Sequence record: MZ726791.1
DNA: 64,000 nt
Source of the DNA: Escherichia phage vB_EcoM_ASO1A
Reading direction: 5' to 3' (one strand)
Each line of letters starts with the position of its first letter. Within the stretch, counting starts at the first letter, position 1. The notes below the pieces were generated by a model, which made no database searches, was not told the origin of the DNA, and saw only the letters and a program-made list of their open reading frames with translations. Both the position numbers and the translations under genes were made by a program. Shown one piece after another: positions 21,238-22,954 of this stretch.

Positions 21238-21702
21238 TTACTTTGGGTATACACTGTCAAGATAAATGTCAGCTTCCATTCTACGTCTGTTTTTCAGACC
21301 GTTTGAAGTGACCTTCTTACCTTTGACTGTAACCTTGTTCCACCACTGCATAGCTTCTGCACAACCTACCTTATTACCAGCATTGTGGCGCTTGATAAAT
21401 GTAGAATCCTGCATAGCTGTGATACCGATGTTGTATGTTTCACTTACAAGTGCATCGAACTCATTCTGAGAGGTTGGAACCTTGATAGCTTTATTCACTG
21501 CTGCAACGAACTTCTCAACATCTGCAAGAAGATACTGTTCAGCTTGTTCAGCAGTAATTTTCATACCCATCTTAACAGGTTTTCCGTCAATACGGATTGT
21601 CCCATACCCAATTGTTGGGATTCCGGCAGAGTCTTCGTAAGCCTCTAACTTCAGACCTTCGAAGAACTTAATAGCATCTAAACCTTTTCTTGAGAGTTGC
21701 AT
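21238..21702 (-). CDS. T4-type lysozyme (endolysin, glycoside hydrolase 24-like)
   Basis: N-terminal FEGLKLEAYEDSAGIPTIGYGT matches T4 lysozyme catalytic region pattern (E..D..T with TIGYG). Confidence 0.75.
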   Translation of the reverse strand: MQLSRKGLDAIKFFEGLKLEAYEDSAGIPTIGYGTIRIDGKPVKMGMKITAEQAEQYLLADVEKFVAAVNKAIKVPTSQNEFDALVSETYNIGITAMQDSTFIKRHNAGNKVGCAEAMQWWNKVTVKGKKVTSNGLKNRRRMEADIYLDSVYPK

Positions 21703-22586
21703 TATGCCTCCCCTGCTGGATTAACTGTAACTGTTGCTGCATTAGATGTTACAGAGCCACCTGCGCCAGTAACTACACAGGTGTAGCTTCCTGAATCAGC
21801 AGCGGTTGCTCCTTCTTTGGTGTAGGTTGCAGTAGTTGCATCGAGGATGTCTTCCTCATCTTTCTTCCACTGATAACCTGTTGCACCTGTTGCCACAACA
21901 TTCAACGTTAAGGTCTCACCTTCATTGATTTCTTGATTGGTTGGCTGTTGAGTGATGACAGGAAGTGCATTCACAGTCACTGTTGCTGCATCTGAGGTAA
22001 CACTTGTTCCACCCTCTCCAGATACAACACAAGTGTATGAACCAGCATCAGAAGGTGCTACTGACTGTTTTGTGTAAGTTGCAGAATTGGCACTAGGGAT
22101 GTCCTCACTATCCTTCTTCCACTGATATCCAGTGGCGTTAGTTGCTAGAATGCTTAGAGTAAGTGTGCCACCCTCATTGACTGTTTGACCTGTCGGTTGC
22201 TGAGTAATTGCTGGTGGCTTAATAGCATCCTTCAACTTAGCATTCAACATTGAGAACGGCTTAACTCTTGCCAACCATTCACAGTAAATTGTGTCAACAT
22301 CTTTACCATTGATGATTGCATACTGCAAATCCATGAAGAAATCAGCAGTTCTCATCTGTGCACCAACACTGTAAAGCAATTCATCACTAAATGGAACTTT
22401 GTAGTCTGGTTTGTAGTCAAACTTCTCAACTTCTGCAATATCAGCTTCAGGCCAATATGAACTATAGGTAAGTGGTAAAATAGCCTCTTGATATGTTCTA
22501 AAATCATACCTCTTACCAGCCTTTACATTTGCAATGAAACCCTTCACAAACTCTTTGAAGTCTGGGTAAGTCTTTGCTTTAATCAT
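21702..22586 (-). CDS. protein with two C-terminal Ig-like repeats; N-terminal domain paralogous to upstream gene
   Basis: Two ~80-aa repeats (ITQQPT.Q..NEG.TLTL...ATGATGYQWKKD...SGSYTCVV.G.GG..TS.AATVTVN); N-terminus aligns with 22583..22954 product. Confidence 0.55.
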   Translation of the reverse strand: MIKAKTYPDFKEFVKGFIANVKAGKRYDFRTYQEAILPLTYSSYWPEADIAEVEKFDYKPDYKVPFSDELLYSVGAQMRTADFFMDLQYAIINGKDVDTIYCEWLARVKPFSMLNAKLKDAIKPPAITQQPTGQTVNEGGTLTLSILATNATGYQWKKDSEDIPSANSATYTKQSVAPSDAGSYTCVVSGEGGTSVTSDAATVTVNALPVITQQPTNQEINEGETLTLNVVATGATGYQWKKDEEDILDATTATYTKEGATAADSGSYTCVVTGAGGSVTSNAATVTVNPAGEA

Positions 22587-22954
22587 TTCTTTTTAGCCTC
22601 TAAATGTGCGTTTAGTCTAAAATAACCTTTGTGATGCGGAGATACATCACCAACAACAATACCTTTAACCTTATAGCCTTTACCAATTACATACTGGATA
22701 TCCATAAGGAATCTTCCAAGTCCAACAATATGGAACATTGGATATAATAGGTTCTCAGAATCTGGAATATTGATTTCAGGTTTGTAGGTACGCTGTTCGA
22801 TTGTTGGTGTAATATCTTCTTCAGGCCATTTGCTGAGTCTCCATGTCAAAGGTGTTGGGATAACATCATTAAGGTTGTACCTTTCACCATTTTGCACGGA
22901 ATTGATATAGGATTGTAGGAAGCAATAAAAGTCTTTTGCACTCTTAGCTTTCAT
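22583..22954 (-). CDS. paralogue of N-terminal domain of 21702..22586 product
   Basis: Shared KAK..DF....RY...WPE.DI...YKP...P.S..LLY...F.MD.QY.I..G pattern. Confidence 0.5.
   Translation of the reverse strand: MKAKSAKDFYCFLQSYINSVQNGERYNLNDVIPTPLTWRLSKWPEEDITPTIEQRTYKPEINIPDSENLLYPMFHIVGLGRFLMDIQYVIGKGYKVKGIVVGDVSPHHKGYFRLNAHLEAKKK

What the first reader, a model, noticed from the sequence alone, without database searches (positions are those of the whole stretch)
21702..22954. Tandem paralogues upstream of the lysozyme gene, one extended by two Ig-like repeats
The 123-aa product of 22583-22954 aligns along its length with the N-terminal ~120 aa of the 294-aa product of 21702-22586, which then adds two ~80-aa repeats with an Ig-like signature (ITQQPT.Q..NEG.TLTL...ATGYQWKKD...SGSYTCVV). 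Both are co-directional with and directly upstream of the T4-type lysozyme gene. Ig-like domains on phage proteins usually mediate carbohydrate or surface binding, so this could be a cell-wall-targeting accessory module or a virion decoration protein.
Basis: seen in the sequence. Interest (0 to 1): 0.5.

Follow-up and report, generated by a model that had tools for sequence, protein, structure and literature searches.

The report
Known capsid decoration gene plus anchor-only twin
The longer gene encodes the already-characterised Hoc-like protein that plugs into capsid hexamers of Felix O1-type phages and displays Ig domains, so it is ordinary; the shorter upstream gene is a conserved copy of just its capsid-anchor domain, which the literature I could search does not describe and whose role is unknown.

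Summary
Two minus-strand genes, 22583-22954 (123 aa) and 21702-22586 (294 aa), are true paralogues (38% identity over 101 aa, E=9e-17). The longer one adds two Ig domains that are 70% identical to each other.

The window is a Felixounavirus. The 294-aa protein is the known hexamer-centre capsid decoration protein (Bas63 "Hex-Dec", PDB 9ncf_S; Sf14 gp20, 9c2d_S; Felix O1 gp36, found in virions by mass spectrometry). [quoted passage not shown] Ig copy number varies from 1 to 4 among relatives. It is not a tail protein and not a lysin accessory. Its position next to the endolysin is conserved synteny across Ounavirinae.

- It is under purifying selection (dN/dS about 0.09-0.18).
- It is transcribed late together with Hex-Dec in Felix O1.
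- It lacks both contact arginines.
- It was not detected in the Felix O1 virion proteome, nor, by inference, in VpaE1's.
- It is pseudogenised in about 19 of 252 related genomes.
- Neither structural paper mentions it.

Its role is inferred, not shown.

The parts
21702..22586 (-). Hex-Dec gene (294 aa): Hoc-like hexamer-centre capsid decoration protein, made of a CapBD plus two Ig domains. Orthologue of Felix O1 gp36 / NP_944848, Bas63 Hex-Dec and Sf14 gp20.
   Evidence: papers read.
22218..22586 (-). Capsid-binding domain (CapBD, aa 1-123) of Hex-Dec. Contains Arg79 (22350-22352) and Arg107 (22266-22268), the residues reported to salt-bridge MCP Asp221 in Sf14.
   Evidence: aligned 1-290 to 9ncf_S and 9c2d_S, whose modelled chains are 120-122 residues; sequence; Sf14 contact residues.
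21969..22217 (-). Ig-like domain 1 (aa 124-206).
   Evidence: Pfam Ig_3 / I-set; repeat alignment.
21717..21968 (-). Ig-like domain 2 (aa 207-290), 70% identical to domain 1. The number of these units varies from 1 to 4 among relatives.
   Evidence: Variants: 377 aa in VpaE1_ev78, 460 aa in Bas63 and 372 aa in Sf14, 210 aa in many metagenomic forms.
22583..22954 (-). Stand-alone CapBD paralogue gene (123 aa, 14.3 kDa). Orthologue of Felix O1 gp37 / Felix01p073, VpaE1 gp40 and Sf14 FDI99_gp021. No Ig domains, and the contact arginines are replaced by Gly78 and His107.
   Evidence: dN/dS.
22976..22992 (-). GC hairpin (GGGGC-TGAT-GCCCC, 22979-22992) plus a T-run, immediately upstream of the 123-aa gene and followed by its AAGGA ribosome-binding site (22961-22965). 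Listed as a rho-independent terminator in Felix O1. The stem is conserved with a different loop in Sf14.
   Evidence: Sequence; Felix O1 Table 2. This short 5-bp hairpin was not picked up by the simple scan.
21238..21702 (-). GH24 endolysin (154 aa), last gene of the three-gene block. Conserved neighbour of Hex-Dec in all Ounavirinae genera examined.
21211..21228 (-). Terminator-like hairpin plus T-run closing the block after the endolysin.
   Evidence: annotated as a terminator in phage Barry.
23002..23592 (-). 196-aa gene of unknown function (phrog_4034), a conserved upstream neighbour. In Kolesnikvirus M7 and Yersinia phage P778 its positional counterpart (206 and 185 aa; homology not tested) directly abuts the Hex-Dec homologue.
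37539..38642 (+). Major capsid protein, the binding partner of Hex-Dec. Asp221 (38199-38201) is conserved.
   Evidence: 9ncf_A, E=9e-246.
37128..37505 (+). Beta-tulip decoration protein Dec, the second capsid decoration protein. Listed for context.
   Evidence: 9ncf_J, E=1e-71.

Best explanation
SHOWN by homology to solved structures: the 294-aa product is the Felixounavirus Hex-Dec protein. It is a monomeric, Hoc-like decoration protein. [quoted passage not shown] It is held there partly by Arg79 and Arg107 salt bridges to Asp221 of the major capsid protein. Two acidic Ig-like domains project outward from it.

INFERRED, as the structural papers also infer by analogy with T4 Hoc: the Ig domains mediate weak adhesion to surfaces, mucus or other particles rather than capsid stability. 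Their number (1-4) is a rapidly evolving trait.

The 123-aa product is an ancient tandem duplicate of the CapBD alone. It is expressed late together with Hex-Dec from the same block and is kept by purifying selection.

INFERRED: it still acts on capsid hexamer centres, but without displaying anything and without being stably retained in purified virions. Examples would be a transient plug on assembling or unexpanded capsids, or a competitor that limits where Hex-Dec binds. It is non-essential.

The adjacency to the endolysin is conserved gene order, not a functional fusion.

The confidence of 0.85 applies to the identity and mechanism of Hex-Dec and to the 123-aa protein being a functional stand-alone CapBD paralogue. 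The specific role proposed for the 123-aa protein carries only about 0.4.
For: Identity of Hex-Dec:
- phmmer to 9ncf_S E=2.4e-247 and to 9c2d_S E=2.4e-165, full N-domain plus Ig.
- Cryo-EM placement and the Arg79/Arg107-Asp221 contacts are described in PMC11821841 and PMC12609058.
- R79, R107 and MCP D221 are present in the window.
- MCP and Dec in the window match 9ncf chains A and J.
- Felix O1 gp36 is in virions, with 14 peptides and 44% coverage.
- Ig copy-number variants are seen.

123-aa protein as a CapBD:
- BLASTP E=9e-17; phmmer to 9ncf_S and 9c2d_S N-domains E=6e-12 and 2e-11 over residues 2-117.
- AF2 model pLDDT 78, pTM 0.76.
- Foldseek hits only 9c2d_S and 9ncf_S, TM 0.71-0.74.

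Functional gene:
- dN/dS 0.095, 0.09 and 0.18 in three comparisons.
- Present in 232 of 252 related phage records and across genera at 74-77% identity.
- A 45%-identical orthologue is paired with its own Hex-Dec in an uncultured lineage.

Late co-expression: Felix O1 RT-PCR puts ORFs 36 and 37 together in the 60-min class. The two genes overlap by ATGA.

Not a stable virion component: gp37 is absent from the Felix O1 virion list although smaller proteins were found. The VpaE1 list, as described in the text, equals the Felix O1 set minus gp23 plus gp54, gp58 and gp68. The protein yields 7 good tryptic peptides covering 83%.

Against: - No experiment addresses the 123-aa protein directly.
- Both MCP-contacting arginines are lost in the stand-alone family (Gly78; His or Gln at 107). 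It may therefore not bind capsid hexamers at all.
- Its net charge is not conserved (pI 9.1 here, about 5.6 in Mooglevirus orthologues).
- Non-detection by MS used a coverage cut-off of 25% or more in Felix O1. For VpaE1 it is inferred from the text, because the table itself is an image.
- The RT-PCR timing data are coarse. They place the flanking genes 35 and 38 in a different class, which is hard to reconcile with a simple operon.
- The adhesion role of the Ig domains is an analogy with T4 Hoc and has not been tested in any Ounavirinae phage.
Confidence: 0.85

Rival explanations
1. The 123-aa protein is a stable but overlooked virion component. It would occupy the 20 true-3-fold hexamers that Hex-Dec leaves empty. 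A monomer there is smeared by icosahedral averaging, and without Ig domains it would not protrude.
For: It has the complete CapBD fold. It is expressed late with Hex-Dec. Both cryo-EM studies imposed icosahedral symmetry on the capsid and report Hex-Dec only on facet-edge hexamers. The Sf14 paper notes that Asp221 is displaced in the 3-fold hexamers, and the stand-alone family has lost exactly the arginines that need Asp221.
Against: It is not on the Felix O1 virion MS list, although proteins of 9.7-13.7 kDa and low-copy baseplate proteins were detected. By inference it was not detected in VpaE1. It is not in the Sf14 table of virion proteins. Both papers state that no density is seen on the other hexamers. 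Twenty copies of a protein with 7 good tryptic peptides should be detectable.
Confidence: 0.12
2. The 123-aa protein has taken on a new function and no longer touches the capsid. It could bind Hex-Dec itself as a chaperone, or a host or phage factor unrelated to heads.
For: Both contact arginines are lost and the conserved KP[FY] motif is changed to KGY. It evolves faster than the Hex-Dec CapBD: 45% vs 57% identity across the same split, and dN/dS 0.095 vs 0.04. It is absent from virion proteomes.
Against: The whole fold and its core residues (F12, G23, Y71, F82, D85, Q87, N115) are retained. The gene remains translationally coupled to Hex-Dec and co-timed with it. No alternative partner is suggested by any search: no Pfam hit, and a unique fold.
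Confidence: 0.25
3. The pair is a cell-wall or envelope-targeting accessory of the adjacent lysozyme.
For: The genes are co-directional, overlap and are bounded by terminators together with the endolysin. This neighbourhood is conserved in four Ounavirinae lineages. Ig-like domains can bind carbohydrates.
Against: The 294-aa orthologues are physically located on capsids. No cell-wall-binding domain is detected. In Felix O1 the lysin is in a different temporal class (middle) from genes 36 and 37 (late). The endolysin is a complete single-domain GH24 enzyme.
Confidence: 0.03
4. The two ORFs are joined by a programmed -1 frameshift at the AAA AAG just before the 123-aa stop codon. This would give a double-CapBD Hex-Dec isoform.
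For: In the window, Barry and the VpaE1 group, the 123-aa ORF ends GCT AAA AAG AAA TGA. The Hex-Dec ORF is in the -1 frame, and slipping on AAG would read through into it. Ig domains are often appended to phage structural proteins by frameshifting (my own knowledge of Fraser et al. 2006; not checked here).
Against: The slippery motif is not conserved in Sf14 (GCT AAG AAA TGA). An in-frame TAA lies two codons upstream of the Hex-Dec ATG, leaving only a one-codon window. Felix O1 gp36 ran and was identified at 31.6 kDa. The cryo-EM density shows a single CapBD per hexamer. ATGA overlaps always give this frame relation.
Confidence: 0.03

Closest known systems
Bas63 Hex-Dec (PDB 9ncf chain S) and Sf14 gp20 (PDB 9c2d / 9c3a chain S); Felix O1 gp36
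   Different: The copy number of Ig domains differs: 2 here, 4 in Bas63 and 3 in Sf14. The 123-aa paralogue has no Ig domain, lacks Arg79 and Arg107, and its orthologues were not found in virions. It is not described in either structural paper.
[quoted passage not shown]
   Same: It works alike: a monomer at hexamer centres with a small globular capsid anchor and a string of acidic Ig-like domains projecting outward. It is non-essential.
   Different: The domain order is reversed (anchor N-terminal here, C-terminal in Hoc). According to the Bas63 authors, the anchor is larger, topologically distinct and pseudo-C2 symmetric. There is no sequence homology outside the Ig part: PHROG 'Hoc-like' hits cover only aa 120-292. 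Not a member of the Hoc family.
T5 pb10
   Same: N-terminal capsid-binding domain followed by a C-terminal Ig-like domain, at hexamer centres. The pb10 Ig domain (5lxk) matches the Ig part at E=1.3e-11.
Kolesnikvirus (Erwinia phiEa21-4 / M7 gp008), Yersinia P778 'head outer capsid protein' and Pectobacterium Arno162 homologues
   Same: A distantly related CapBD (25-38% identity) in the same position, directly upstream of the endolysin.
   Different: The display module is swapped: Big_2 in Kolesnikvirus, a different Ig, or only a Lys-rich tail. No stand-alone CapBD paralogue is present in M7 or P778.

Membership tests
Ounavirinae Hex-Dec / Sf14 gp20 decoration protein (tested on the 294-aa protein) | N-terminal ~120-aa CapBD homologous to the cryo-EM-modelled domain | tested here: met
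   phmmer E=2.4e-247 (9ncf_S) and 2.4e-165 (9c2d_S), aligned from residue 1.
Ounavirinae Hex-Dec / Sf14 gp20 decoration protein (tested on the 294-aa protein) | One or more C-terminal Ig-like (I-set / Ig_3) domains | tested here: met
   Two domains, Ig_3 2e-22 and I-set 2.5e-15.
Ounavirinae Hex-Dec / Sf14 gp20 decoration protein (tested on the 294-aa protein) | Capsid-contact residues Arg79 and Arg107, with MCP Asp221 in the partner | tested here: met
   R79 and R107 are in the sequence. MCP position 221 is D. The contacts are as described in PMC11821841.
Ounavirinae Hex-Dec / Sf14 gp20 decoration protein (tested on the 294-aa protein) | Gene lies outside the structural module, immediately upstream of the endolysin | tested here: met
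   The Bas63 paper notes the gene is more than 10 kb from the structural module.
Ounavirinae Hex-Dec / Sf14 gp20 decoration protein (tested on the 294-aa protein) | Physically bound at centres of facet-edge hexamers of the virion | not testable with these tools
   Shown for the orthologues by cryo-EM and by virion MS in Felix O1. Not shown for this exact phage.
Ounavirinae Hex-Dec / Sf14 gp20 decoration protein (tested on the 123-aa protein) | CapBD sequence homology and fold | tested here: met
   [not shown]
Ounavirinae Hex-Dec / Sf14 gp20 decoration protein (tested on the 123-aa protein) | C-terminal display (Ig-like or Big_2) domain | tested here: not met
   The protein ends at residue 123, right after the CapBD, and has no Pfam hit.
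Ounavirinae Hex-Dec / Sf14 gp20 decoration protein (tested on the 123-aa protein) | Capsid-contact Arg79 and Arg107 | tested here: not met
   The aligned residues are a near-invariant Gly78 and His/Gln107 (Arg in the divergent P0099) across the stand-alone family.
Ounavirinae Hex-Dec / Sf14 gp20 decoration protein (tested on the 123-aa protein) | Presence in purified virions | not testable with these tools
   Published proteomes do not list it: Felix O1, VpaE1 by inference, and the Sf14 table. The raw spectra could not be searched here.
T4 Hoc family | Domain order: Ig domains N-terminal, capsid-binding domain C-terminal | tested here: not met
   Here the CapBD is aa 1-123 and the Ig domains are aa 124-290.
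T4 Hoc family | Homology of the capsid-binding domain to that of Hoc | tested here: not met
   PHROG Hoc-like families match only aa 120-292. The CapBD model has no PDB neighbour other than 9c2d and 9ncf. The Bas63 authors report a distinct topology.
Endolysin cell-wall-binding or accessory module | Recognisable cell-wall-binding domain (LysM, SH3, PG_binding or similar), or fusion to the catalytic domain | tested here: not met
   No such Pfam hit at E up to 1. The genes are separate ORFs.
Phage tail protein (the database annotation) | Homology to a tail tube, sheath or fibre domain outside the Ig part | tested here: not met
   PHROG 'major tail protein' hits cover only the Ig region, aa 96-254. 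The Bas63 authors state that the 'tail protein' label is a misannotation.

The most novel reading that the evidence does not exclude
The stand-alone CapBD is a dedicated 'blank' hexamer plug. It would recognise the hexamer state that Hex-Dec cannot bind: either the 20 true-3-fold hexamers, or the skewed, roughly 2-fold-symmetric hexamers of the unexpanded prohead, which would suit its pseudo-C2 fold. In this way it would determine why Hex-Dec ends up on only 60 of 80 hexamers. That would make it a paralogue-encoded regulator of decoration-protein patterning, a role I am not aware of having been described for any phage.
Probability: 0.2. Interest if true: 0.55.

Novelty: already known. Interest (0 to 1): 0.27.

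Why it matters
The main object is already explained. It is the Hoc-like Hex-Dec protein of Felix O1-type phages, solved on the capsid in 2025. The practical value for this window is correcting the inherited 'tail protein' label and discarding the lysis-accessory idea.

The residual interest is the anchor-only paralogue. It is conserved, selected and expressed late, yet apparently not packaged, and it sits directly in front of the decoration gene.

It also matters for phage display. The CapBD is a compact (~120 aa), modular anchor that nature has fused to at least three different display modules.

Tried and rejected
1. Programmed -1 frameshift fusing the two ORFs at AAA AAG. Rejected because the motif is absent in Sf14 and the published protein size and density show a single CapBD.
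2. First AF2 run with only close homologues gave pLDDT 57 and was not used. The second run, with distant CapBDs added, gave pLDDT 78.
3. Word-indexed homologue searches returned only relatives at 68% identity or more. The exhaustive profile search was needed to reach Kolesnikvirus and other forms, and it showed the family has only 12 clusters at 50% identity among 1.84 billion representatives.
4. VpaE1 virion MS: Table S2 is stored as an image and could not be read. Non-detection of gp40 is therefore inferred from the main text.
5. The Sf14 supplement has no list of non-structural MS hits. The wV8 and UAB_Phi87 papers contain no usable virion list for these genes.
6. One broad literature search returned only irrelevant virology papers.
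7. The sigma-70 promoter scan found fewer sites than the shuffles (6 vs 9.3) and nothing convincing upstream of the 123-aa gene. How late transcription starts here is unresolved.
8. I first read the 'VpaE1_ev' records as laboratory-evolved lines. I have no evidence for that, so I treat them only as related records, one with 3 Ig domains and one with 2.
9. TRF did not report the 249-nt Ig repeat because the DNA copies are too diverged. The repeat is evident at protein level.
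Full report
WHAT IS THERE

The window is a Felix O1-type myovirus (genus Felixounavirus). The 2.7-kb region around the finding is 97.7% identical to Escherichia phage bumzen, and 251 phage records match it.

On the minus strand lie, in order of transcription:
- a 196-aa gene (23002-23592);
- a short GC hairpin plus T-run (22976-22992);
- the 123-aa gene (22583-22954);
- the 294-aa gene (21702-22586, overlapping the previous stop by ATGA);
- a GH24 lysozyme (21238-21702, one-base overlap);
- a strong terminator-like hairpin (21211-21228).

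The same layout is annotated in phage Barry, VpaE1 and Sf14.

CHECK OF THE OBSERVATION

The two products align over 101 residues at 38% identity, E=9e-17. Each cross-hits the other's PHROG family. Pfam finds two Ig domains in the long protein (Ig_3 2e-22, I-set 2.5e-15). The two units are 57/82 identical with a 249-nt period.

WHAT THE 294-aa PROTEIN IS

A sequence search of the PDB gives near-identity to chain S of 9ncf (E=2.4e-247) and strong homology to chain S of 9c2d/9c3a (E=2.4e-165). These are the icosahedral capsid reconstructions of Escherichia phage Bas63 (Felixounavirus) and Shigella phage Sf14 (Mooglevirus).

Both papers identify the protein as a monomeric, Hoc-like decoration protein. 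[quoted passage not shown] The Ig domains are flexible and unresolved (PMC11821841 and PMC12609058).

The Sf14 paper attributes binding to Arg79 and Arg107 salt-bridging Asp221 of three MCP subunits. All three residues are present in this window. The window's MCP and beta-tulip Dec match chains A and J of 9ncf.

The Felix O1 orthologue gp36 was detected in CsCl-purified virions with 14 peptides and 44% coverage (PMC3185647).

The database label 'tail protein' comes from the Ig part hitting Ig-bearing tail proteins. The Bas63 authors explicitly call it a misannotation.

Ig copy number varies: 2 here, 3 in VpaE1_ev78 and Sf14, 4 in Bas63, and 1 in many metagenomic variants. The Bas63 paper reports 1-4 across the genus. 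The extra unit in 3-Ig forms is a distinct third sequence, not a fresh duplicate.

WHAT THE 123-aa PROTEIN IS

It has no Pfam hit. In the PDB it matches only the N-domains of 9ncf_S and 9c2d_S (E=6e-12 and 2e-11, residues 2-117).

The modelled part of those chains is 120-122 residues. The 123-aa protein is therefore a complete CapBD and nothing else.

IS THE SHORT GENE FUNCTIONAL?

It is intact in 232 of 252 related phage records and is 74-77% identical between Felixounavirus and Mooglevirus, Sf14 included (FDI99_gp021).

Nei-Gojobori dN/dS values:

| Comparison | 123-aa gene | Other genes |
|---|---|---|
| window vs BPS15Q2 (dS 0.70 for the 123-aa gene) | 0.095 | Hex-Dec CapBD 0.04; lysin 0.04; 196-aa gene 0.05 |
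| BPS15Q2 vs Sf14 | 0.09 | lysin 0.09; 196-aa gene 0.09 |
| window vs Sf14 | 0.18 | Hex-Dec CapBD 0.03; lysin 0.10; 196-aa gene 0.08 |

The gene is under purifying selection, somewhat weaker than on the Hex-Dec CapBD.

An exhaustive profile search of 1.84 billion cluster representatives found only 12 clusters. Among them is a 45%-identical stand-alone form (P0099) alongside a 57%-identical Hex-Dec (P0100) from an uncultured lineage. The stand-alone proteins form one clade, so the duplication is old and both copies have been kept.

WHAT DISTINGUISHES IT FROM THE Hex-Dec ANCHOR?

In alignments of 13 and 21 sequences, the core residues are shared (F12, G23, Y71, F82, D85, Q87, N115). Arg79 aligns with a near-invariant Gly. 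Arg107 aligns with His or Gln (Arg in the divergent P0099). The KP[FY] motif that follows becomes KGY. Net charge is not conserved: pI 9.1 here, about 5.6 in Mooglevirus.

EXPRESSION AND LOCATION

In Felix O1, RT-PCR puts ORFs 36 and 37 together in the late (60 min) class with tail-fibre and baseplate genes. The lysin (35) and gene 38 are 'middle'. The hairpin upstream of gene 37 is listed as a terminator.

gp37 is not among the Felix O1 virion proteins, although proteins of 9.7-13.7 kDa were found. The VpaE1 virion set, as described in the text, is the Felix O1 set minus gp23 plus gp54, gp58 and gp68, so gp40 was not found there either. The Sf14 table of MS-detected virion proteins does not list gp21.

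The protein would give 7 tryptic peptides of 7-30 residues covering 83%, so it is not intrinsically invisible. Neither structural paper mentions a paralogue (no hits for 'paralog'; 'gp21' occurs only for SPP1). A search of the library for Hex-Dec, Felix01p073 or Sf14 gp21 finds nothing further.

WIDER CONTEXT

The CapBD is a modular anchor. In Kolesnikvirus (Erwinia phages) it carries a Big_2 domain. Other lineages have a different Ig or only a Lys-rich tail.

In Kolesnikvirus M7 and Yersinia phage P778 the order is ~200-aa gene, then Hex-Dec homologue, then endolysin, with no stand-alone copy. The neighbourhood with the endolysin is therefore ancestral gene order across Ounavirinae. The anchor-only duplicate is confined to the Felixounavirus/Mooglevirus clade and one uncultured relative.

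MECHANISM

Shown, by homology to solved structures and published proteomics: the 294-aa protein anchors through its CapBD to hexamer centres and displays two acidic Ig domains (pI about 4.1 each).

Inferred, as in both papers, by analogy with T4 Hoc: adhesion or aggregation rather than stabilisation.

For the 123-aa protein I commit to the reading that it still acts at capsid hexamer centres but transiently or sub-stoichiometrically. It could be a blank plug or competitor during assembly. This reading fits the retained fold, the coupling to and co-timing with Hex-Dec, the purifying selection, the altered contact residues, the absence from purified virions and the dispensability. I put this at roughly 0.4.

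The main rivals are neofunctionalisation away from the capsid (0.25) and stable occupancy of the 20 three-fold hexamers missed by averaging and MS (0.12). The lysin-accessory idea and a -1 frameshift fusion are each at about 0.03. The slippery AAA AAG before the stop is not conserved in Sf14.

COMPARISON WITH KNOWN SYSTEMS

The 294-aa protein is a member of the Hex-Dec / gp20 family; every sequence-level defining feature was tested and met. It works like T4 Hoc and T5 pb10 but is not a member of either family. The domain order is reversed relative to Hoc, and the anchor has no detectable sequence or fold similarity to anything else in the PDB.

The 123-aa protein belongs to the CapBD fold family but fails three of the features that define a decoration protein: display domain, contact arginines and virion presence.

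VERDICT

The finding is real, and its main component is already known and structurally solved.

The only new element is the recognition that the upstream 'hypothetical protein' is a conserved, anchor-only paralogue of Hex-Dec. This is modestly interesting and directly testable.

Noticed in passing
window 24665-26080 (+) and 26246-31397 (+): A 471-aa DUF2828/DUF7788 protein, annotated 'RNA-binding protein' or vWFA in relatives, sits immediately upstream of a cluster of 25 tRNA genes and diverges from the block studied here. In phage Barry the same gene is annotated as two halves. A possible link between this protein and the tRNA array was not examined.
   Followed up: no
[not shown]
   Followed up: partly
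window 21238-23592 compared with L010 (BPS15Q2): Synonymous divergence differs sharply between adjacent genes: lysin dS 0.075, Hex-Dec CapBD 0.30, Ig part 0.40, 123-aa gene 0.70, 196-aa gene 0.60. This suggests recombination breakpoints inside this small block.
   Followed up: no
window 22586-22600 (-): The 123-aa ORF ends GCT AAA AAG AAA TGA. It has a -1 slippery-like AAA AAG, and the Hex-Dec ORF is in the -1 frame. The motif is identical in Barry and the VpaE1 group but absent in Sf14. It is probably incidental to the Lys-rich C-terminus.
   Followed up: yes
window 23002-23592 (-); L008 1877-2497; L009 1941-2498: The 196-aa protein of unknown function (phrog_4034, no PDB or Pfam match) sits just upstream of the block. 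In Kolesnikvirus M7 and Yersinia phage P778, a gene of similar size at the same position (206 and 185 aa; homology not tested) ends 2-3 bases before the Hex-Dec start. A functional link to the decoration protein is possible.
   Followed up: no
window 22976-22992 (-) compared with L004 2458-2500: The hairpin between the 196-aa and 123-aa genes keeps its GGGGC/GCCCC stem but has a different loop in Sf14 (GAAA vs TGAT). It is followed within about 15 nt by the ribosome-binding site. Felix O1 RT-PCR places the genes on either side of it in different temporal classes. No promoter for the late genes was found.
   Followed up: partly
Public annotations of the orthologues: Hex-Dec orthologues are variously labelled 'tail protein', 'major tail protein', 'HK97 major tail subunit', 'kappa-carrageenase' and 'multidomain protein with S-layer homology region'. 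The 123-aa orthologues are auto-named 'Tail protein' in UniRef. All of these labels appear to be propagated misannotations.
   Followed up: partly
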